DNA of 64,000 nt from the human T2T-CHM13v2.0 reference genome, Homo sapiens: assembly GCF_009914755.1 (NCBI RefSeq), contig NC_060935.1. The stretch is one strand, 5' to 3'. The first letter of the stretch is position 1. The number at the start of each line of letters is the position of its first letter. A program made the translations under genes and the position numbers. Under the pieces are notes generated by a model that was not told where the DNA came from, made no database searches, and worked only from the letters and a program-made list of their open reading frames with translations. Positions 20,710 through 52,900 of this stretch are shown here, piece after piece.

Positions 20710-21077
20710 TGATATATGATGTGGGCAGGAAAGGCTAGGAGTTGGGCTAAGATCCCCATTTCTCTGCCACCCCTCTTCAACATGTTTGCCCCCGTTTCTG
20801 AAACTGGGGTGTTTTGGATCACCTCTGTTCAAGGCTTTCCTTGGTTTTGGGGAGTTCACTGGATGATGCCCAGGGGCAGAGCTTCTAGTACTCTGCCCAC
20901 CTCCTTCCCTGACCCTATCCAGAACAAAGTCCTCTTTTATCATACTCAACTTTCCCATAAGATAGCATTTGAAGAAAGGATTTTACTACTAAAACAATAG
21001 TACAAAAACAATCTCCCCTTGGCTCAGCTCACTCCCTGACCTCCTGCAGGTCACCCCATCAATTGAAAGAAGCCATG

Positions 21078-21242
21078 TGATATGGTTTGGCTCCGTGACC
21101 CCACCCAAATCTAATCTTGAATTGTAATCCCCATGTGTGGAGGGAGAGATCTGGGTGGGAGGTGAATGGCTCATGGGGGCAGCTTCCCCCATGCTGTTCT
21201 CATGACAATGAGGGAGTTCTCACAAGATCTGATGGTTTGAAA
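21078..21242 (+). mobile_element. THE1D LTR 5' half (part of a local duplication)
   Basis: TGATATGGTTTGGCTCCGTG...GATCTGATGGTTTG; shares its 5' flank with the LTR at 22212. Confidence 0.85.
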
Positions 21243-21488: not shown

Positions 21489-22211
21489 CGAGGCAACTTT
21501 TACCGCAGGCTTAGATATTCTGGCCTTCTAACCTTGCAGCCAAGGTCATTGCATCTAAAGCTCTCAGCCTTCTTAGCATCATGGAAGAGAAAAGCCTGGG
21601 TTTCTACATAGATTTAGGCTTCAGCTCCTTTTCTGTCACCTTCCAGCAATGAGCTTAATTTCACTTTTTTCAGCTAGAAAATGGATCAGCACTTTCTACC
21701 TTCGGATTACTGTGGGGAGTTATCGAGGTCATGAACACGATCCTTGACCTAGTGCCTAGAATGCATGGGACCTTCATGCCTGCTCCACGTCTGAATGAGT
21801 TTTCCAAGTGCCCCATACTTGGGCATGAGTGGGGAGACCGGGGCTGTTCTTATCCAGAGGTGTTCAGGGCCACCAGGGAAGGATGTTTCTCTGCTCCCCT
21901 TGCAGAAAGCCTGGCCCTAGTCCTTCCTAGGTTGTGACCTAATTTTGGTCTGGCCAGAAGTGGCATCTTCCTTTATCCCTCATTGTCTTGAAGACCTTGA
22001 GTGAACTTGGCCAGGACGATTTCTGCAGGAGTAACACATCCAGCCAGCTGGGCATGGTGTGCACCTCCTGTCCCCACCCTGTCTCACACACTTTCCCTGA
22101 GTGGTGCCCGCAGCTTCTGCGGTACCGCCTCCCAGATCTCCCCATGGCTCAGCTCACTCCCTGACCTCCTGCAGGTCACCCCATCAATTGTCACCTCCTG
22201 AGAGAAGCATG

Positions 22212-22624
22212 TGATATGTCTTGGCTCTGTGTCCCCACCCAAAGCTCATTTTGAATTATAATCCCCATGTGTCAAGGGAGGGACCTGGTGGGAGGTGATT
22301 GGATCATGGGGGTGATTTCCCCCATGCTGTTCTCATGACAGTGAGGGAGTTCTCACGAGATCTGATGATTTAAACATGGCAGTTTCCCCTGTGCACACAT
22401 TCTCTTTCTCTCTTTCTCTCTCACTCTCTCTCCTTCCACCTTGTAAAGAAGGTACTTGCTTCTCCTTTGCCTTCCACCATGATCGTTAAGTTTCTTGAGG
22501 CCTCCCCAGCCATGTGGAACTGTGAGTCAATTAAACCTCTTTCCTTTATAAATTACCCAGTCTCTGGTAGTATCTTTATAGCAGTGTGAAAATGGACTAA
22601 AATAGAAAAATGGACTAAAATACC
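22212..22624 (+). mobile_element. THE1D solo LTR inserted in an L2 fragment
   Basis: Full THE1D-type sequence (GAATTATAATCCCCATGTGTC..., GAGTCAATTAAACCTC, GCAGTGTGAAAATGGACTAA); terminal 16-mer AAAATGGACTAAAATA duplicated (22589-22604, 22607-22622). Confidence 0.9.
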
Positions 22625-30300: not shown

Positions 30301-32220
<1,920 letters not shown>

Positions 32221-32449: not shown

Positions 32450-33033
32450 CTGGAGCAGAGCCTTGAGGCTCAGTGGGAAAGTATCCTGGTTGATTGATAA
32501 CATCTGGCATAGTATGGGGGGGGGTGCTTTGGTGACAGCTAATGTGTTCTATATCTGCAGATGACAATCTTTGAGGTTTGATTTCATTGCATCCTTTAAG
32601 ATTCCCATTGTATTAGGCCATTTGTGTGTTGCTATAAATAAATACCTGATGTTGGATATTTATAAAGAAAAGATGTTTTCTGTTCTTGTGTTAGTTTGCT
32701 TAGAACGATGGCTTCCAGTTTCATCCATATCCCTGCAAAGGACATGAACCCATTCTTTTTTATGGCTGCATAGTATTCCATGGTATATATGTGCCACATT
32801 TTCTTTTTTTACTTAAAAAAATTTTTTAAATTATACTTTAAGTTCTAGGGTACATGTGCAGAACATGCAGGTTTGTTACATAGATATACATGGGCCATGT
32901 TGGTTTGCTGCACCCATCAACTCGTCATTTACATTAGGTATTTCTCCTAATGTTATCCCTCCCCCAGCCTACCACTCCTTGACAGGCCCCGGTGTGTGAT
33001 GTTCCCCACCCTGTGTCCATGTGTTCTCATTGT

Positions 33034-36841
<3,808 letters not shown>

Positions 36842-39635: not shown

Positions 39636-40959
39636 TAAGAAGCCCTCCCCCTGACCCTGATGCATGGCAGTTTAAGAACCACCCATGTACGTGAAAAGAC
39701 CTTTAAGAAAAAATGGAGATATATGTTGTATAACTATTAGTCTGCTCTGGAGTCATCTGGGGAAATCAGGGTCCGGTGGGTGGAGCATTCACTAAATGAG
39801 GGGGATTCAGTTAGGACACATCAAGCCATGGCTCCAGATAATTAGATCATCTAACTGAGGTTTAAATTATGCTAAACTGTTTTAAAATTACATTTGTGTA
39901 AATTATATTACACAGACTGAGAATGGCAATGCTCAGGTGTGGCAAAGACCTGATTTTATGTAAGTATTTACGTCCAACACAAATATTATTTTGTACCCTC
40001 ATTTGTCTGATGGGCTCATTCCAGGTCAACAGCTTTCTGTTACCAGGATTGATGCCATATCACCCATTAAGTGGAGAGAGTAGGCATTGTCACTCCTCTT
40101 GGCCAAATGAGGGGAATAGAGACTCAGGACAGCAATGTGGAATCCCACAGTTGATGATCTTGCAGTGCCCCTGAGGCCTGGGGACACGTGGAAGGATGAG
40201 ACTTAAGGAGCCTATTGCTATTCGGGGGCTTCCTCTCTGGCTTGATTAACTCTGAGGAGCCACTTCTTGTCCTTGGGGACCCAACCTCAGCCTATCCTAG
40301 GAACATAATAAAGGAAGAAATGGGCACATCCCCCAGAGCTCCTAGGTGGTGGGGACAGGCGGCAGGGGGATGTCCTGGGAGAGGAAAGGGCAGTCGGAAA
40401 AAGGTGTTGAAGAAGCAGTTAGATATCCCCTGATCCCCTTCCCAGCTCCACGCTGCAAGGTGACTGTGCCATCCCACCCAACAGAGGACTCTGAGTTTAT
40501 TGTCTGGCGACCATAAAGAAGGGAATCTCTGCATTGGAAAGCTCCAGGCACAAGGGAGGATGCGGCACCACACTGACAACAAGGGGAGTGTGTCAATGGG
40601 TCATTCAGAGGCTGAGACTGCAGCCTGCTCTGCGCCAGAATACTGGCAGCCAGACTTCTGAACTCCAAACAGGAGAACAGAAGTCCCCTCTGGGGAGTTG
40701 ACAGTTCAAGAAGACAGACCTAACAATACCAACATCCAGTATTTCCCCTAAAGGCTCAACCCTCCCACCCACTCTTGGGCCTGGTTCTGTATCAAGAGCA
40801 AACACTAAGGACCTCCAGGCATCCCTGAAAGTCTCTAATGTGAATGTAGAGATCTAAACAGATCATGTGTTTACTCTTCTGTGTATGATCACTAATTTTT
40901 CTAACCTCAAACTCTTTGCCAATTGTCCAAACATTTTTCAGCATTTTCATTCACACAGA

Positions 40960-42330
40960 TCATGAATGGAAGAGAGACACTACACAAGGAGAAAAGTCAT
41001 CATCATATAACCATAATAATAACAAACCCCTCTATCCAAAGAGAGACAACAGCAGATAAGGCATTCATGAAAAAAGAACATAATGCCATAAAAAAGGAAC
41101 ATGAAGCACAAGAAGAGGTCTTGGAGAACAAAAACACAAGAGCAGAAATAACAAATTCAGTAGGAGGTTTGAGAGCCAAAGTTGAGGAAATCTCTCAAGA
41201 ATATACAGTGCAATAAATCACTGAAACCAGGAGACAAATGACAGGAAAATTGGAGGACTAGTGCAAGAGCTCTAATAATCTACTACTCAAATCATAGGCA
41301 TTCTAGAAACAGAGGGAACATGGTAGGGAGGAAATGTCAATAAAATAAGAGAAGAAAACTTCCTAAAAGTAAAAGACATGAATCTCGAGATTGAAAAGAC
41401 CCCACAAGTGCTTACCTAGCACAGCAGATAAGCCACACGTCCAGATTTCCATCAGGGCAGGTCAAGGGAAATTTCAGGACATTGGTAGGATAGAGAAAGT
41501 CTACAAACTTTCTACAAATCAGAACAGCTTTAAACGTCTCAACAGTAATCCTGGAAGCAAGAAGACAGTGGAGCAATGTCCTTAAAATTTGGAAGGAAAT
41601 GTATTCCTAACCTAGAGTTCTATGTGAAGCCAAAATATAAAAATATCCTTAGATATGCAAGGTCTCGAGAAATTTGCCTCCCACCCACCCATTCACAGGA
41701 AACTACTAGAGGATGTGCTTCCCCATAATGGGAGAGTCCAGCTCGAAGTGAAGTTTGAGTGACAGGGAAGGGAGGGCCCAGGACGCCAGTTTGGGAATGC
41801 CAGAAGTTTCCAGGAGAGACTTCAAGATATCAAATTGATATCTTGATGTGAATGAAAATACTGAAAAAGGTTTGGACAACTGGCAAAGAGTTTGAGGTTA
41901 GAAAAATTAGTGATCATACACAGAAGAGTAAACACATGAAGAAATCATAACAGTCGTAACATTGAATACCAATCTCATTAAAATGATGGCACATCTATTT
42001 AGGGAGGATGGGAGGGATGGAAGTTTAGGGTTAAGGGGTAGGGGAGGACAGAGATTTAAAACTGCATCTCCTATACAAAGAGGCAATGGATAATGCCTAA
42101 AACTGAAAAATATACATAGCATTGCAAGCATGTTTTGTAGCAATAGAAGCCAAATGGCAGAGTGGTCAGCTGAGGGCATTGAAAGTTGTTATTTCTGGAG
42201 AAGAGGAAGTGGAGGGGGGGAAGGGCTGGAGAGAGCAGCTTGAATGAACCAGCCTCCTAAACCAGATGACTCTCTAAACTAGGCACACTTGGGTAACTGG
42301 TAAAACTGGATAATTAAAAACAATACAATT
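40960..42330 (+). mobile_element. HAL1 (half-L1, ORF1-like) remnant
   Basis: Decayed coiled-coil reading (NAIKKEHEAQEEVLENKNTRAEITNSVGGLRAKVEEISQ); CAAGGTCTC...TTGCCTCCCA...AGGAAACTACTAGAGGATGTGCT. Confidence 0.7.
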
Positions 42331-42334
42331 AAAG

Positions 42335-42495
42335 TATATGAAAAACTGGTAAATGTGAATAAGGTCTGTTTCTGAGTTAATAACATTGCACCAATGTCAA
42401 TTTCCTGATTTTGACAAAGGGTGCGTAGGAATTCTCCAAACTATTTTTGCAACTTTGTGTGAGTCTTAAATGATTTTGAATTAAAAGGCTATGTA
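42335..42495 (+). mobile_element. L1M 3' end fragment
   Basis: AAAAACTGGTAAATGTGAATAAGGTCTG...CACCAATGTCAATTTCCTGATTTTGAC. Confidence 0.7.
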
Positions 42496-44679
42496 AATAA
42501 CACAACAAGCATAACTACAATAGGAGAATGTGCTGTGCCTAAAGCCACACCTAACAGAGTAAAGGGCTTTGCTGGCCACGTCTGCCCAGGTCCTGGGTGG
42601 TGGGCCCAGGTGCCTCTGGCCTCCCAGGTACATCTAGACACGGTCAGACGGGGTTAATTGAAGAAACTGTCTGTCTCCAAGCCTCAGCTGAAGGCCAACA
42701 TTGCTAACTCCTAGAGAGGGCAGTGCGCAGAGGCTGAGCTATTCCTCTCCAGCAGTTTTGTGCAGAGCTGTGGAGGAGAAAACAAAAATTAAACCATAAG
42801 CATGCTGCTGACAGTGTCCTTTTAAAAGGAAATAAACACCTGCCAGTCACTGCCTGGGGAAAATGAGCCTTAATCATGCGGTCGGGTGGCGTCTGGCCAT
42901 CCCATTCTGCTCACATTCTCAGGGGAAGCTTGCGGGGCTCTGCAGCTGTGGGCGGTGGCCTCCATCAGGGGGCAGGGCAGGAGGGAGGTGGGCCAGGGCC
43001 AAGAAGCTGAGCGGCGCCAGCCTAGAAATTTCATCCACAGCCTCGTGGGACAGATGAGCAAACAGTGGGAAGGAGGCCCAGAGAGAACTTGAAGATGTGG
43101 AGTCAGGCTGATCTGCATTTAAACATTAGGACAACCTGATCCCAAATTACTTCAAACTGCATGGCCTCAGGCAAGAACCTCACACTTCCTGAGCCTCATT
43201 TTCTTCTCCTGAATATGGATGTTCCGTGTGAAGATTGGAAAATATTCCAGCACATTGCCAATCTACACGTGAAGAACAGTGGCCCAGAGGTATTGAGCAG
43301 CTTGCCTGGGATCACACAGCTGGCGAGGGGGGAAGCCAGGATAGGAACCGTGTTGGGAAGGGTTCAGAGTATGGCTCCACCCAAACCAAACCCTTTCCAG
43401 TCTTTGCCACTATCCCATGGTGTGCAGTTGGGGATTCGCAGATATTTACTGAGCACCTACTATGCACAGGCAGTGTTCTAGAAGCAGAAGTTGCAGCAGT
43501 AAGCAACACAGCCCCATGCCTTTAAGAAGTGGCATTCCAGTGGGGGAGGTAACTGTAGACAGAGACAGGAGACACCATGAGCCTGATGTTACAGGTGAGA
43601 GGTCAGCTGTCGAGGTATGTTGAGTACCTTGAGAATGTGTGTTGCCCACTGAAGGTGCCATACTGTCCCATCAAGGGCCCTGAGCCAGTTCCTCCATGCG
43701 GGCTGCAGGGTGTGAGTAATGAGGTGTGGATTTCAGCGTCCTGACTCCTGGAATGTGAGTGGAAAAGGCCAGTCTTAGTGGTTAGCTCAAAGATAGTCTC
43801 TGACCACGCTTAGGGCACTGGGATAATGAGCCTACACCCCTTCTTCCCAGACGCCCAAAGAGCTTCAGGGGCCTCAGGCACCACTCCTTAGACACCTGTG
43901 GCTAGCTGCCCCATGGGGTCCTGATTCCTGTGAGGCTACAGGGGCCCAGGCAGGGGCACTGGACTAGGGATCTAGCCCGTGTTGTGCTGCCCACTTGCTG
44001 TGTGACAAAGGGTGAGTCCTTGCCCTCTCTGAACCTCTATGTCCTCACCTGAACAACTTGGGGGCTGGATTTAAGAAAGGCAGCTCTGGTTTGCACATTT
44101 TGACATCTTCAAACCCTCAAGCGTTTGGGGAAGCATTCCTTTATTCAGCATCCTGGAATGCTCCCTATGTATCTGGTGCTCAGTTACAACGAGGAACAAC
44201 ACAGATGTGGCCGCTCACTTCATGGAGCTTACAGGACACTTAAAAGAAGCAGCCGTATCTGGCATGAAGCTGATCATGATATGCCTATGAAGGAAGAGCG
44301 TAGGGGGCACCTCTGGATCACTTCCTGTTGGTGGAGTGTATGGGGCTGGGTGACTGTAGATTATAGCATGGTGGATAGAACATAGGGCCAAGGAGGAAGG
44401 CCTGGGGGGGTCAGTGGGCAACCATTTGGGTCTGCAAGGGCAAGCTGGTGCTTGTGTGCCAGGACCGCAAACCAGGAGCCAGGGCTGGAGCTCCTCCAGC
44501 CCAGTGAGGTTCAAGGGAAGGGGGAGGGCAGTGGCTTCTTGTCACCATTTAGACACTGGGACCTAAGAAAATGGCTGAGTGAACTGTGTCACTCAGTTTC
44601 TGAGGCCTGCTTTCCAAGTTTATAAAACAGGCCTGATGGCATGGGTGATTAAATGACATGATACGTGAGTTACCTGCCA

Positions 44680-46930: not shown

Positions 46931-48680
46931 GGGGAGGCCAGCGGGGCTGCCACATGGCAGGAGGCGGGGGGCAGGCTGGAGGAGCTGATGCTGTGGCCTA
47001 AGTAGGTGGAGGCTGCTTTGTTATTATTGCTGCTGTTATTGACAGTAGCTCAGATTCAAGGCCTGATCCAGAGCAAGTGCTCGGTTCATGCTGGACAAAT
47101 AGCTGATAAGCGAGGGCTTCAGGCATAACCTGTGTAATGTTTCCATGGAAACTTATCACTGCTTCCTGTTGGTAACCTGAGAGACTCCCAGAGGTCTCTC
47201 ATCCTCTGGTCCTGCCCTGATCTGGGCTGGGGACTCACTTCCTCTTCCTCTGCATCTCACCCTGAGCCCCAGCTGTCGGGGAGGACGCACAGCACGGGGA
47301 ATGGAAGCTCTTCCTGTCGCGGACCCTCTGCACACGCACAGCACACCAGGCCCAGATGGCCCTAGGCCAGGCCTCAAAGTTCCAGCCCACGTCAGCCCAG
47401 GTCCAGGATGCAGCTGGGCTCATGCAAGAGGAAGAGCTTACGCTGGTGGTGGGGAGTTGGGGAGCAGCCAGTCCACTGTTCTAGACAAAGGAGCTGGCCT
47501 GAGACGTGTTCCTCAGGAGACCCCACCACCAGTCACAGCAGCAACACAGTGGAAAGATGCTGTGTGGCCCCAGGACCGGGTCTGCAGCCCCATTCGACAG
47601 CTGAAGAAACAGAAGCAAAAGGCAGAGCTGGCCTGCTCTGGAAGGCTGGTGTTTTGAGAGCCAGGTTGTACCCGCCAGCTGGGCATACCTGTGTCCACAC
47701 ACATAGACCCACAAACACAACCTTACATGGTTCTACATGGTTATGAGAGATTCAGACATACATGCTGTTATGTGAGTAGGACAGAGACACAGACACACGC
47801 CATCCAACAGGACACTGTCTCTTATGAGGATGTGACATTCAAACATGTCATTCTACACAAGTCACACACACACAAAGCTGAGGACATATCCATTGATGTT
47901 TCTGCCCTCACTTCCCAGATAATTGTGCTGAAAAATAGAAACACCTGCACCCTACCAAGCTATTACCCGGCAGCGGCAGGAGCAGGCTAATTAAGCCTTC
48001 ACAGGAGGCTGGCATTTTCCTGGCAGCCCTGCTGCCCCTCGCTGCCAGGGTGGCCGCCAGCCCGAGTGGCCTTTGTGATGAGCCCCAGGGGGCACACGGC
48101 CCAGCCTGTCTCCCTCTCCTCCCTCTCTGGGCCCTGAAATGATTCTGCATCTTGTTCTCCCAAAGGATGCCTCTTGGGCCAATGGCCTGCTTATGAAGAT
48201 GGCTAGAATGAAACCCTCCCTGAAGCTTGAGGCCTGGATCAGCAGAGACCCTCCCAAAGTTCCCAGTTCTCTGACTGGAGGACATTTGAGGGACCTAAGT
48301 TAGCTGTGGACATGAGTGATGGATGCCCTCGGCTGTTCTCTGCCTATTCCAAGGGCTTAACTCCATCCCTCTGGCCAGAATGGGACTCAGTTTCCCCTTC
48401 TTGCCACCCTGGGCTTGGTTCTTGGCCATTCTCTCTCACACATTCACCTCTCAGCCACCCTGGACTTCCTGCTCTTCTTCCAATACGCCAAGCTCATGCC
48501 TGCCTCAGGGCCTTTGCACCTGCCCTGTTTTCTGTCTGAAACCCTCCCTTCCTTCCAGGTCTTTGCCTGTTCCTCTCATCATTCAGGTCTCAGCTCAAAT
48601 GGTACCTCCTTAGGAAGCCCGCCCTGACCCACCTAGTTAAAATCTCTCCTCCAGGTGCGCCCCTCAGTTTTTTCTTAATT

Positions 48681-48850
48681 CAGTGGTTTTCAGCCCTGGC
48701 TGCTTGTTAGAATCACCAGGGGAGCTTTTAAAAATAACGGTGCCAGGGCATTGTGTAGGCTAATTAAGAATCTCTGGGATGTGGGTCGTGCATGCTGCCA
48801 TTATTTTAAAAAACCCTATGTGGTTTGAATGTGCAGTCAGGACTAAGACA
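48681..48850. mobile_element. MER5A-like MITE
   Basis: CAGTGGTTTTCAGCCCTGGCTGCTTGTTAGAATCACCAGGGGAGCTTTTAAAAATA. Confidence 0.7.
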
Positions 48851-48919
48851 TCTTGGTCCAGATACTTTTTGGTCAGCAAGAGAAAAGGCCGAATTTTGCA
48901 ATCCCCTCCCTTCAGTGCT

Positions 48920-49237
48920 CTCTCCCTAATAGCTCTGTGATATGGGAACTATTATCACACCCATTTTACAGACCAGGAAACTGAGGCTGTAAGTCAGAGA
49001 AGTAAAGTACCCAAAGTCACACAGCTGGGAAACTGTAGAACTGGGAATTTAACCCAAGCACCATGGCTCTGGAGTCTGCCTCTTAATCCCAACACTTGGC
49101 TGCAGTTGTTTTATTAAATCTCACAACCACTCCATGACACGACATTTTAAAGATGGGGAACCATGGCTCAGAGAGTCAGGAGACATGACCAAGGTCACAC
49201 AGCCAGGATTCAAACCCAGGTCAGGCCGACTCTAAAG
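48920..49237 (-). mobile_element. Two tandem MIRs
   Basis: CCCATTTTACAGACCAGGAAACTGAGGC; CCAAGGTCACACAGCCAGGATTCAAACCCAGG. Confidence 0.8.
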
Positions 49238-49468
49238 CAGGGGTGTCCAATCTTTTGGCTTCCCTGGGCTACACTGTAAGAAAAAGAATTGTCTTGGGCC
49301 ATACATAAAATATATGAATACTAACAATAGCTGATGAGCTGAAAAAAAAATTACAAAAAAAAAAATCTTAATGTTTTAAGAAAGGAAGGTTCAGGAATTC
49401 GTGTTGGGCCATATTCAAAACCGTCCTGGGAGGCATGTGGCCCGCGGGCTGTGGATTGGACAAGCTTG
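49238..49468 (+). mobile_element. MER30 (hAT-Charlie MITE), complete
   Basis: CAGGGGTGTCCAATC ... GATTGGACAAGCTTG termini; perfect 8-bp TSD CTCTAAAG at 49230-49237 and 49469-49476. Confidence 0.92.
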
Positions 49469-49554
49469 CTCTAAAGCATAGGAATTTGTGTTGGGCCATA
49501 TTCAAAGCCTTCCTGGGTTGCATGTGGCCCGCGGACTGTGGATTGGACAGCTTG

Positions 49555-50803
49555 GCAGCAAGGCAGACCATATCAAATGAGGTCTGGGCCTGAAAACACA
49601 TCACAACTTCACCCAAGGACCCAGCCTTCCTCTTGGGAAGCATCATCTCTCCCCAGCCTCCCAAGCCCCTTCTCTTTTCCCATCTCTATCACGCCCATTG
49701 CCTGGCTGTTTCCTGCTCTGCTGTAAAGCTACATCTCCCAGGAGGATGTGCAGAGTTGCTCTAAAGCATAGAGTACAGGACACAGGGAAGGGACAACTTC
49801 ATGATCTCTCACGTCCTCATTTCTCCACCTTTTGGGAACCAGCCTCAGGGGGAATGGAGCAGATGGAAGGTTGGCACTAGAGCATGGATCTACTCACTTG
49901 CTGCCCATGAATTAATTTCACAGTAGAATAAGTGGCATTGTATATAGCCCTTGTGTGGCAGCCACTGTTCTAGGTATTTTACATATATTGGCTTGACCCT
50001 CAAAGAAACCGTATACTCTTCCTCTTTATTTTAGTGACAAGTAATAGGCACACAGAGAATTAAGCAACTCACCCCAAAGCTGCACAGCTAATCATGCAGA
50101 GCTAAGATCTGAACTCACGCAGGCTGGTTCCAGAGTCTGTGCTCTCAGTTCCTGCACCATACTCTCCCTCTCAGCTGCCTTGCTTATTGAACTGCGTGAA
50201 GCTCACTTTTCTCCCCTATGAATGGGTATAATAGTGCCTACCTCGGATGGAAAATTAGAGGACAAACCCAGAACATGATTGCACAGGCAGGCCCTGGCAC
50301 AAGGAGGTGCAGAGTAGGCATTTGGTAAGGGAGGTCACTGGACAGCTGGGAGATCATGGACAGCCAGGATGTCACCCCTTCAGCAACCAGCCTGGAGACT
50401 TATATACAGTAGGTGCTGAACTGACATGCAACGCGGATGAAGGTGGTGACATTTGGAGGCCACCAGGCTGCAGTTTCCCCAGAGAGGTTCAGGGCTCAGC
50501 AGCCCCTTGGGATCTCGAGCTCAGCAAGAGGACCTTTAAATGCCTAGAGACTGCCTACGTGCGTCACCGCTGTCTTCCATTAACGCATAATTGCTCTTGC
50601 AGGCGAGTAGCTATGCTCACTAGGGTCAGATTTACAGCAGAGCAGGAAACAGCCAGGCAACGGGCATGACAGAGATGGGAAAAGAGAAGGGGCTTGTGTG
50701 GCTGGGGAGAGATGACAATTCCAAAGAAGAAGGCTGGGTCCGTGGGTGAAGTTGTGATGTGTTTTCAGGCCCAGACCTCATTTGATATGGTCCGCCTTGC
50801 TGC
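49555..50803. repeat. 173-bp inverted repeat (49555-49727 / 50631-50803), 903-bp spacer
   Basis: Manual alignment gives 161/173 identical with no gaps; also visible as near-identical ORF translations on opposite strands. Confidence 0.97.
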
Positions 50804-51462
50804 CCCCACAAAGCACATCGGGGAAATGCCAGCATTTGAGCCTCCAAGCTACATCTCCCAGGAAGATGTGAAAATGTATCCCCTGAATGGGCAGTACTAG
50901 GATTAAAGATTTTCTTATGAGTCTCTGTAATGTTCTCCTTATCTATGTAATATCACTGAAATCTGCAACAAGTCATCAAAGACATCCCGTCTGGAAGGTG
51001 TGACGGCAGCTTTTTCATTTCAAGGCTCTGGCTTCCTCTCCCGGGAGCTAAGCCCCATGCACACTACTAGGCGTATTGTTCATCACTCCAGCCCTTCAAA
51101 GAGATCTCCAAAAGTGCACACACAATCTGCAAGCTGCCGAGTGACCCCTTCACTCACGTGCACCCCACAGATGCCTTAGAGGTTAGGGAAGATCACTGTG
51201 CCTCAAATGTGCCATATTTTCTCCTACCACCTTGCCTGGGCACCACCTGTTCCCTCTGCTGGGATGTTCTTGGTCTAGCCACCGTGGCAAATTTCTCCTG
51301 GTCCTGCAAGGCTCAGCTCAAGTACTACTTATTTTGCAAAACCTTCCCCAAAGGGGCAGCCTGAATCTCTAAGAAGCCGGGCCAGAGCTCTTAGAGTTAT
51401 CTTCTCTCGTGTCTGTGTCCCAAAATCAACTGTCCATCCACAGAGCAGCTGATGTAGCCAAA

Positions 51463-51658
51463 CAGTGGTTCTCAAAGTGAGGTCCCAGGACCAGCAACAT
51501 TACCTTCATCGTTACCTGGGACCTTGTTGGAAATGCTGGATCTCTGCCCCACACCCCAGACTTACTGAATCAGGAACTCTGGGTGTGGGGGCCGGCAACC
51601 TGTCCTTCAACAAGCCCTCTAGGTGAGTCTGATACATGCTCAAATTTAAGAACAACTT
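51463..51658 (+). mobile_element. MER5A
   Basis: CAGTGGTTCTCAAAGTG...CCCAGACTTACTGAATCAGGAACTCTGGG...AACAAGCCCTCTAGGTGA. Confidence 0.85.
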
Positions 51659-51706
51659 TGGAAGGGGGATAAGGTGAATTTGGGTATGACTCATCCAGGA
51701 CAAATA

Positions 51707-51835
51707 TTAGGTTGGTGCAAGAGTAATTGCAGTTGTTGCCATTAAAAGTAATGGCATTACTTTTTGCCATTTAAAGTAATGGCATTAAAAGTACTTTTAA
51801 TGGTGACAACTGCAATTACTTTTGCACCAACCTGA
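51707..51835. mobile_element. MADE1 (Hsmar1-derived MITE), internally expanded to 129 bp
   Basis: TIRs TTAGGTTGGTGCAAGAGTAATTGC / GCAATTACTTTTGCACCAACCTGA with TA on both sides. Confidence 0.92.
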
Positions 51836-52124
51836 TAACACAAAAAGCAACGACAACAAACGCTACCTACAGGACCATGAGCTAGATGCGTGCCAGGCAC
51901 TTTACCTGCACTGATTCTTCACAGCAATGCATGAAGAAGATACCCATTACATAGACGAGAAAACTGAGGCTCAGACAGTCACTCATTTCCCTAGGAAACA
52001 ACTAAGAAGTGATGGCTCCAGCTGCAAACCAACCCCAGTCTAACTACAAAGCCCGTGTGCTATCACAGAAAAACTGTGCGATTTGGAGATTCAAAGGAGG
52101 GAGAGACCACATCCAAGTCAGGTT

Positions 52125-52900
52125 TTTCCTGAATTTTATATTTTCAAAGTATGGTTTTGAAAGATCAAATAATGCTTAAAAAAAAAAAAAAAAGCAAGCT
52201 CTTGTTCCTTCCTACCCTTCTCTCATCTCTGCTCTCAGAAGTGACTACTTTCAACTCTTTTAGCTACTTTTTTAGGTATTTACTTCCATACTTTAAAATA
52301 TCTGTCTTGTATTATTTCTTGTTTCATCGGTTTTAGACTCCACCTCTTGACTTACACTGGATAAGGACTTTTGATCATGAACACCCCCTGTCCCAGGATC
52401 ACCATGTAATCTTGGGATACATCGGTTCACCTTGTAAACACCATAGATTCATATATGATCTAGATAATTTTCCTTTCAATGGCAGCAAAACTTCTTGAGG
52501 GCCTGTGTCTCTAGTTGCCCACAGGTGCTATAAGGGCTAAGGGTAGCTTTTCCCTGCTGCTGTCCCCTCCCAACAGAATTAAATCTCCATTTTTTAAATT
52601 AAATTCATAGTCAATGTTTTATAATTGTGACCAAATAAATATTACTAACAGTAGAACCAAGTCATTTGCTACTGATGCTCACTTTCTTGGACTTTTTGTT
52701 TTTCCTAGAGCTGATAATTGTTGTGGTCCATTTTCCTGGCTCCTGTGATGTCCTTTTTCTTAGTTGCCTCTTTATAGAATGTCCTAGAATCATCATGAGT
52801 TCCATCGTTCCATAGTGAGTTCTCCCTGAAGATTCTCCAGTACCTTCATTCCTCCTGACTGTATGAAATACCCCAGCATCATCCTACAAATCCATATGAC
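52125..52900 (-). mobile_element. HAL1/L1M-like antisense remnant
   Basis: CTCAGAAGTGACTACTTTCAACTCTTTTAGCT...GGTATTTACTTCCATA. Confidence 0.5.

What the first reader, a model, noticed from the sequence alone, without database searches (positions are those of the whole stretch)
49466..50870. Four-part chained templated insertion beside a MER30, creating a 173-bp inverted repeat
Seen: TTGCTCTAAAGCATAG occurs at 49466-49481 and again at 49756-49771. Between them lie (A) 49481-49554, a direct re-copy of the MER30 right end (~49394-49468); (B) 49555-49727, an inverted copy of 50631-50803 (161/173); (C) 49726-49750, a direct copy of 50846-50870 (24/25); (D) a 5-nt linker CAGAG. Junction microhomologies are AG, G and AA. 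There is no poly(A). The donor of B continues a MIR, so 50631-50803 is the original. Known: serial short template switches with microhomology typify FoSTeS/MMBIR or polymerase-theta repair. Inference: one ~290-bp fossil repair event. It starts and ends at the transposon TIR/TSD, so a hAT transposase nick (abortive excision) is a plausible trigger. It left a second TIR end and a non-Alu dsRNA or inversion substrate around a 903-bp spacer.
Basis: partly seen in the sequence, partly recalled or inferred. Interest (0 to 1): 0.75.

Follow-up and report, generated by a model that had tools for sequence, protein, structure and literature searches.

The report
Old DNA-copying scar beside dead transposon
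A 290-letter patch in an intron of a predicted human non-coding gene is made of copies of three nearby stretches of DNA; it is likely an ordinary scar of a DNA copying or repair slip, of a known kind, that likely arose long after the neighbouring jumping gene had stopped moving.

Summary
The anatomy is real: 16-mer repeat, A (69/76), B (161/173, inverted, two places in the genome), C (24/25), 5-nt linker, microhomologies 2/1/2 nt. It is likely a multi-template insertion of the MMBIR/FoSTeS kind, a described class of human germline mutation.

Three corrections. (1) The donor of B shows no MIR. (2) A plus the 16-mer is simply an 87-nt tandem duplication; B-C-D (201 nt) sits in its second copy at the transposon end, with TTG repeated. 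(3) The transposase trigger is unlikely. A shares four derived bases with this MER30 (0 of 77 other copies carry more than two). The copies differ by 6.6% pairwise, while MER30s lie about 11% from their consensus, so the event is about 0.3 of MER30's age, after primate DNA transposons fell silent. No similar chain was seen at 162 other ends, and a genome-wide motif search found only this locus.

Orthologues, RNA editing and inversion polymorphism could not be tested.

The parts
49094..49237 (+). MIR fragment at whose 3' end the MER30 sits
   Evidence: MIR profile built here, E 3.9e-13
49230..49237 (+). left 8-nt target site duplication
   Evidence: identical to 49469-49476
   Evidence: 231 nt, TIRs, 8-nt TSD; 40 best relatives 80-84% identical; divergence 0.112
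49395..49481 (+). copy 1 of the 87-nt tandem duplication (MER30 right end + TSD + 5 nt of flank)
49469..49476 (+). right 8-nt target site duplication
49482..49554 (+). segment A: direct copy of this MER30's right end; first part of tandem copy 2; AG overlap at 49480-49481
   Evidence: 69/76; four shared derived bases; best match among 78 rows is the host
49555..49727 (-). segment B: inverted copy of 50631-50803; left arm of the 173-nt inverted repeat
   Evidence: 161/173; two places in the genome
49726..49750 (+). segment C: direct copy of 50846-50870; AA overlap with B
   Evidence: 24/25
49751..49755 (+). segment D: 5-nt linker, template not identified
   Evidence: best covering match 9 nt at 50307-50315; 17% of random sites do as well
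49756..49771 (+). second 16-mer: repeated TTG + TSD + 5 nt; tail of tandem copy 2
   Evidence: 16/16
49728..50630 (.). 903-nt spacer between the arms; holds two MIR fragments
50631..50803 (+). donor of B; right arm; unique sequence, no MIR match
50846..50870 (+). donor of C, 42 nt beyond the donor of B
40863..40955 (-). second scar of the same geometry (outside the finding): inverted copy of 41847-41939, flanked by a 10-nt direct repeat at 40858 and 40955
   Evidence: 90/93; spacer 891 nt; two places in the genome

Best explanation
The 290-nt patch is made of copies of three stretches lying within 1.1 kb of it, and is likely the fossil of one germline template-switching accident (MMBIR/FoSTeS type) that likely happened long after this MER30 had stopped moving, without a transposase. 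Shown: the pieces, their donors and orientations, the 1-2-nt overlaps, that A came from this MER30 after it had mutated, and the re-parse into an 87-nt tandem duplication holding a 201-nt insert at the TIR end. Inferred: a nascent strand stalled or broke at the MER30 right end, primed twice about 1 kb away (25 nt in the same sense, 173 nt in the opposite sense), returned within 3 nt of where it left, and slipped 87 nt on an AG overlap. The strand cannot be told from the product. The age is likely 10-30 million years (0.19-0.45 of an element 40-58 My old). The trigger is unknown; a TIR-plus-TSD stem that stalls the polymerase is a weakly supported candidate. The patch is most likely neutral.
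For: Anatomy and uniqueness. Four shared derived bases in A and host; 0 of 77 other copies carry more than two, product of frequencies 5e-5. Pooled divergence 19/289 = 6.6% pairwise (95% 4.0-10.1) against 10.9% per lineage in 34 chr1 copies; P = 2e-11 if the copy were as old as the family. CpG decay occurs in both arms, so much of the divergence is time. Tandem part 6/86 and B+C 13/198 are equally diverged (P = 1.0). Tracts of 73 and 173 nt and donors about 1 kb away exceed Pol-theta insertions of 3-30 bp and match complex germline MMB-TIs of up to five templates, 33 of 103 and 26 of 99 events in two people. Primate DNA transposons were silent by about 37 My and 22 of 33 human Pack-TIRs arose after that. 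A second scar of this geometry lies 8.6 kb away.
Against: No orthologue could be read, so 'one event' and the date rest on divergence alone, with wide intervals. Microhomology is not above chance (P = 0.078). MER30 is CpG-rich and B is not, which biases the age ratio low; within A alone the ratio is about 3/(4+3) = 0.43, and the lowest non-CpG family figure (6.9%) still predicts about 40 differences against 19 seen. Gene conversion could make the copies look younger; error-prone synthesis could make them look older. The insert sits within 3 nt of the TIR end, which this model explains only by chance or by a hairpin; the whole element does not fold better than shuffles (z = -0.89).
Confidence: 0.7

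Rival explanations
1. Two separate accidents: an ordinary 87-nt tandem duplication over the MER30 end, then a later 201-nt templated insertion (B-C-D) into the second copy with a 3-nt duplication. Both transposase-independent.
For: The structure parses exactly this way. A plain 110-nt tandem duplication over a MER30 left end, 91% identical and with no foreign insert, exists on C4 (L093), so step one happens alone.
Against: The two parts are equally diverged (6/86 vs 13/198), though power is low. Two independent rare events would have to fall in the same 87 nt.
Confidence: 0.2
2. A hAT transposase (Charlie12, or a domesticated relative) nicked the MER30 right end and abortive repair made the patch.
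For: B-C-D sits within 3 nt of the TIR/TSD border, where a hAT enzyme cuts (recalled). MER30 is a Charlie12 derivative from the last hAT wave.
Against: The copy postdates four substitutions in the element and is about 0.3 of its age; only 17 of 29,966 scored DNA-transposon insertions postdate the New World monkey split. 0 of 162 other ends show such a chain. A genome-wide pattern for an A-type re-copy finds only this locus among at least 1207 right ends, at about 47% motif sensitivity (36 of 76). Pack-TIR breakpoints skew away from element ends.
Confidence: 0.04
3. Polymerase-theta end joining of a resected double-strand break (for example a meiotic one), with several aborted rounds of synthesis.
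For: 1-2-nt overlaps, direct and inverted templates and several rounds are its marks; template switching and TMEJ signatures occur at human meiotic breaks.
Against: First-round tracts are rarely over 10 bp and scars are 3-30 bp; here they are 73 and 173 nt with donors 1 kb away. No PRDM9-type 13-mer (motif recalled) within 48500-51500, which says little about an ancient hotspot. Sequence alone cannot name the polymerase, so this overlaps the best explanation.
Confidence: 0.04
4. An L1-driven or RNA-templated insertion, with the 16-mer as its target site duplication; or independent repeat insertions or an assembly error.
For: 16 nt is within the usual L1 TSD range (recalled), and the locus lies in a predicted lncRNA intron.
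Against: No poly(A) or A-rich target; pieces in both orientations; the 16-mer is the tail of the tandem copy; B and C are unique; 6.6% divergence excludes an assembly duplication.
Confidence: 0.02

Closest known systems
Complex MMBIR templated insertions (MMB-TI) in the human germline (Osia et al. 2021, PMC8421209; passages and section 10 part 1 of 2 read)
   Same: Several local templates, reverse and forward, short overlaps, return to the original template; their example FG-16 has one reverse and two forward templates; up to five templates per event.
   Different: Those are variants between living people and the reference; this one is about 7% diverged and presumably fixed. Tract lengths of their events were not compared.
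Single-copy Pack-TIRs made by transposition-independent gap filling (Tan et al. 2021, PMC8277862; passages, section 8 and supplement searches), notably the MER30/MER30B case in an ARFGEF1 intron
   Same: A 178-nt local copy from about 1.3-1.4 kb away in a MER30-type element, listed in baboon, gibbon, orangutan, gorilla and human; median microhomology 2 bp; formed after transposons fell silent.
   Different: A Pack-TIR filler lies inside the element, between TE halves. Here it lies at the end of a duplicated right end and has three to four parts. This locus is not among the 33 human rows that mention chr11 or MER30.
Short-range template switches in great apes, four-point model (Walker et al. 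2021, PMC7954356; passages read)
   Same: An inverted copy from a nearby template with return behind the departure point, leaving an inverted repeat.
   Different: One excursion, median 12 nt, maximum 128 nt, templates tens to hundreds of nt away. B is longer, farther and chained; the second scar (93 nt) is closer to this class.
Polymerase-theta templated insertions (Carvajal-Garcia et al. 2020, PMC7165422; passages read)
   Same: Direct and inverted local templates, iterative rounds, short microhomology.
   Different: 3-30 bp and close to the break; here 73-173 nt tracts and donors 1 kb away.

Membership tests
Complex MMBIR/FoSTeS templated insertion | Insert copied from two or more local templates | tested here: met
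   A, B, C from three donors within 1.1 kb
Complex MMBIR/FoSTeS templated insertion | At least one inverted template and return to the original track | tested here: met
   B inverted; flank resumes after the second 16-mer
Complex MMBIR/FoSTeS templated insertion | Microhomology at junctions beyond chance | tested here: inconclusive
   2, 1 and 2 nt at three junctions, P = 0.078; two junctions at D unresolved
Complex MMBIR/FoSTeS templated insertion | All pieces arose in one event | tested here: inconclusive
   Divergences homogeneous but low power; no orthologues available
Complex MMBIR/FoSTeS templated insertion | Replicative origin and polymerase identity | not testable with these tools
   A fossil sequence does not name the enzyme
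Polymerase-theta templated insertion (TINS) | 3-30 bp, templated from DNA close to the break | tested here: not met
   Tracts 73, 173 and 25 nt; donors of B and C about 0.9-1.1 kb away (definition)
Pack-TIR | Captured sequence flanked on both sides by parts of one TIR element | tested here: not met
   MER30 profile hits only 49238-49468 and the A region; only TTG of the TIR follows the insert
Pack-TIR | Local donor, formed after the element's insertion | tested here: met
hAT abortive-excision scar | Break at the TIR/flank border | tested here: met
   B-C-D lies at 49554/49555, TTG repeated
hAT abortive-excision scar | Formed while the transposase was active | tested here: not met
   Age ratio 0.30 (0.19-0.45); four earlier substitutions; silence dates
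hAT abortive-excision scar | Recurs at other ends of the family | tested here: not met
   0 of 162 ends; genome-wide motif finds only this locus
L1-mediated insertion | Poly(A) tail and A-rich endonuclease site | tested here: not met
   Sequence read; features recalled
MER30 (Charlie12-derived hAT MITE), for the host element | About 230 nt, TIRs, 8-nt TSD, about 11% divergence | tested here: met
   published length 230 and divergence 0.11-0.12
MER30 (Charlie12-derived hAT MITE), for the host element | Match to the Dfam/Repbase consensus (MER30 versus MER30B) | not testable with these tools
ADAR-edited long dsRNA | Both arms in one transcript and editing observed | not testable with these tools
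   Stem predicted, longest perfect run 50 nt; both arms lie in intron 1 of a predicted lncRNA; no RNA data

The most novel reading that the evidence does not exclude
The two scars 8.6 kb apart, each an inverted copy fetched from about 0.9-1.0 kb downstream (spacers 903 and 891 nt), are the marks of one clustered fork collapse in an ape or catarrhine ancestor, or of a local hot spot with a fixed jump length; and the dead MER30's end stem, stronger than in 54 of 55 other copies, was the stall site. Fossil pairs like this would then measure the size of the single-stranded loop at a germline fork.
Probability: 0.1. Interest if true: 0.55.

Novelty: new member of a known kind. Interest (0 to 1): 0.25.

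Why it matters
It is a clean, readable fossil of a mutation type usually seen only in patients, tumours or living variants, and its date can be read from a single genome. It argues against blaming a transposase for scars at transposon ends. No function is indicated. It would matter more if the neighbouring scar proves to be the same age, or if the 173-nt stem is edited or drives inversion of the 903-nt spacer.

Tried and rejected
MIR origin of B's donor: no hit in 50400-51000. A MIR continuing across the patch as proof of the ancestral join: removing the patch, or patch and MER30, did not extend the MIR match. Template for linker D: best 9-nt match at 50307-50315, reached by 17% of 3000 random sites. 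A structured RNA family: 8 Rfam matches at E up to 1 in 48500-52000, all far below gathering score, none on the arms. A from another MER30: L037 looked as close over a shorter stretch, but over the full length the host scores best (69 identities). Repeats of the scar at other ends: two flagged ends of 162 were Alus; the three other hits show only a 7-mer. Whole-element hairpin: z = -0.89. G4 or PRDM9-type motif nearby: none (motifs recalled). A prior inversion of the spacer was considered by reasoning only and needs more steps. Pace and Feschotte 2007 was not held; its dates are taken second-hand. Primate orthologues and earlier scan notes were not available. The survey of ends stopped at 84 loci, fewer than planned.

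Full report
Observation. B occurs at two places in the genome, and a search with 50330-51200 returns only itself, B and C; the tool warns that such searches skip very common words. The host element is 231 nt with TIRs and an identical 8-nt TSD. One claim failed: a MIR profile built from about 50 local copies finds five MIRs in 48000-52500 but none in 50400-51000. The donor side is still the original by parsimony: B's and C's donors lie 42 nt apart, and removing 290 nt restores a single TSD and flank.

Re-parse. A and the second 16-mer together are copy 2 of an 87-nt tandem duplication (49395-49481). B-C-D, 201 nt, sits in that copy at the TIR end with TTG on both sides. So the 16-mer is not a target duplication, and only one breakpoint, not two, coincides with the transposon end. 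D has no demonstrable template.

Dating. Against 77 other copies, A and the host share four derived bases, one of them a common CpG decay; no other copy carries more than two, and the host is A's best full-length match. The copies differ by 19 of 289 bases (6.6% pairwise). MER30 copies lie 10.9% (34 chr1 copies), 8.4% (29 best BLAST hits, biased low) and 11.2% (host) from their consensus. The ratio is 0.30 (0.19-0.45), and P = 2e-11 if the copy were as old as the family. CpG content biases this ratio low; A alone gives about 0.43. With inactivation placed at 58-40 My (PMC5059674, passages) or about 37 My (PMC8277862, passages), the event falls at roughly 10-30 My. That is inference from divergence; no orthologue was available.

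Are MER30 ends special? At least 1207 right ends carry an exact 14-mer. A pattern for a right end followed within 300 nt by an internal MER30 motif finds only this locus; the motif is intact in 36 of 76 copies, so the rate of A-type re-copies is under about 0.5%. The mirror pattern for left ends finds one locus, L093, a plain 110-nt tandem duplication whose breakpoints lie about 55 nt inside and outside the element. Of 84 loci held, 81 had a profile hit; 2 of 162 ends were flagged and both were Alus; in several Alu-split elements one 'end' was an internal break. Control windows were flagged in 29 of 1438, mostly Alus and tandem repeats by inspection. One locus, L053, has a 40-nt copy of its own MER30 interior about 400 nt beyond the element. 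Local copies thus occur near MER30s at a low rate and not at TIR ends in particular. In favour of a structural trigger: the host's end-plus-flank duplex is -14.2 kcal/mol against a median of -8.8, matched by 1 of 55 copies; this test was post hoc, and the whole element folds no better than shuffles.

A second scar. 40863-40955 is an inverted copy (90/93) of 41847-41939, unique in the genome, flanked by a 10-nt direct repeat, with an 891-nt spacer. The repeat scan of 40000-42800 shows no TIR pair beside it; the surrounding DNA looks like old L1 (recalled). Its divergence does not differ significantly from the first scar's (P = 0.31). No unique inverted pair of this kind was found in 259,374 control bases, but those loci are 3 kb long and undercount 1-kb spans, so one unselected case in 64 kb is not a significant excess. 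The matching spacer length is noted after the fact.

Mechanism. Shown: pieces, donors, orientations, overlaps, order relative to MER30 decay. Inferred: a stalled or broken nascent strand at the MER30 right end primed on two templates about 1 kb away, came back within 3 nt and slipped 87 nt. Tract lengths favour MMBIR/FoSTeS over polymerase theta, whose insertions are 3-30 bp (PMC7165422, passages), but the overlaps are not above chance (P = 0.078) and the enzyme cannot be named. Two separate events remain possible (0.2).

Consequences. A + strand transcript is predicted to pair the arms end to end; the longest perfect run is 50 nt. Both arms lie in intron 1 of the predicted lncRNA LOC105376650 by the hub's table. 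Editing, expression and inversion were not testable.

What is known. Complex germline templated insertions are described: 33 of 103 and 26 of 99 events in two people, up to five templates (PMC8421209, passages and section 10 part 1). Single short switches are catalogued in great apes (PMC7954356, passages). A 178-nt local copy in a MER30-type element, shared by catarrhines and classed as transposition-independent, is in PMC8277862 (section 8 and supplement searches). MER30 derives from Charlie12 (PMC5753468 and PMC1914374, passages). Template switching at meiotic breaks is described in PMC7615360 (passages). A search for LOC105376650 found no paper, and the human Pack-TIR rows with chr11 or MER30 do not include this locus. 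Searches were read as listings only, apart from the papers named. Supplements of the MMB-TI and ape template-switch papers were not read, and variant catalogues were not available.

Verdict. A real, well-resolved, likely neutral scar; a new member of a known kind; interest 0.25.

Noticed in passing
window 40858-40964 and 41847-41939: Second templated inverted copy (90/93), 891-nt spacer, 10-nt flanking repeat, unique in the genome; same geometry as the finding.
   Followed up: partly
L093 (G000:C4:79490550-79491150): 110-nt tandem duplication (91%) over the left end of a MER30-type element, copying flank, TSD and 55 nt of the element.
   Followed up: yes
L053:1906-1945: 40-nt direct copy (92.5%) of the interior of the same locus's MER30, about 400 nt beyond the element.
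   Followed up: partly
L079:1502-1560: Short internal repeat near the right end of a MER30-type element.
   Followed up: no
window 30318-31983 and 32830-34495: Two direct copies of 1.67 kb at 91.5%, in repeat-masked DNA that looks like L1; either two insertions or a local duplication.
   Followed up: no
window 21011-21241 and 22136-22374: Direct pair of about 240 nt at 85%; not examined.
   Followed up: no
window 51705-51837: Palindromic element with 46-nt arms and an internal 27-nt repeat, weak mir-548-like Rfam match; looks like a Made1 MITE (recalled).
   Followed up: no
L020:1890-1932 and 2534-2578: 45-nt direct repeat (91%) flanking Alu sequence; longer than a usual target duplication.
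   Followed up: no
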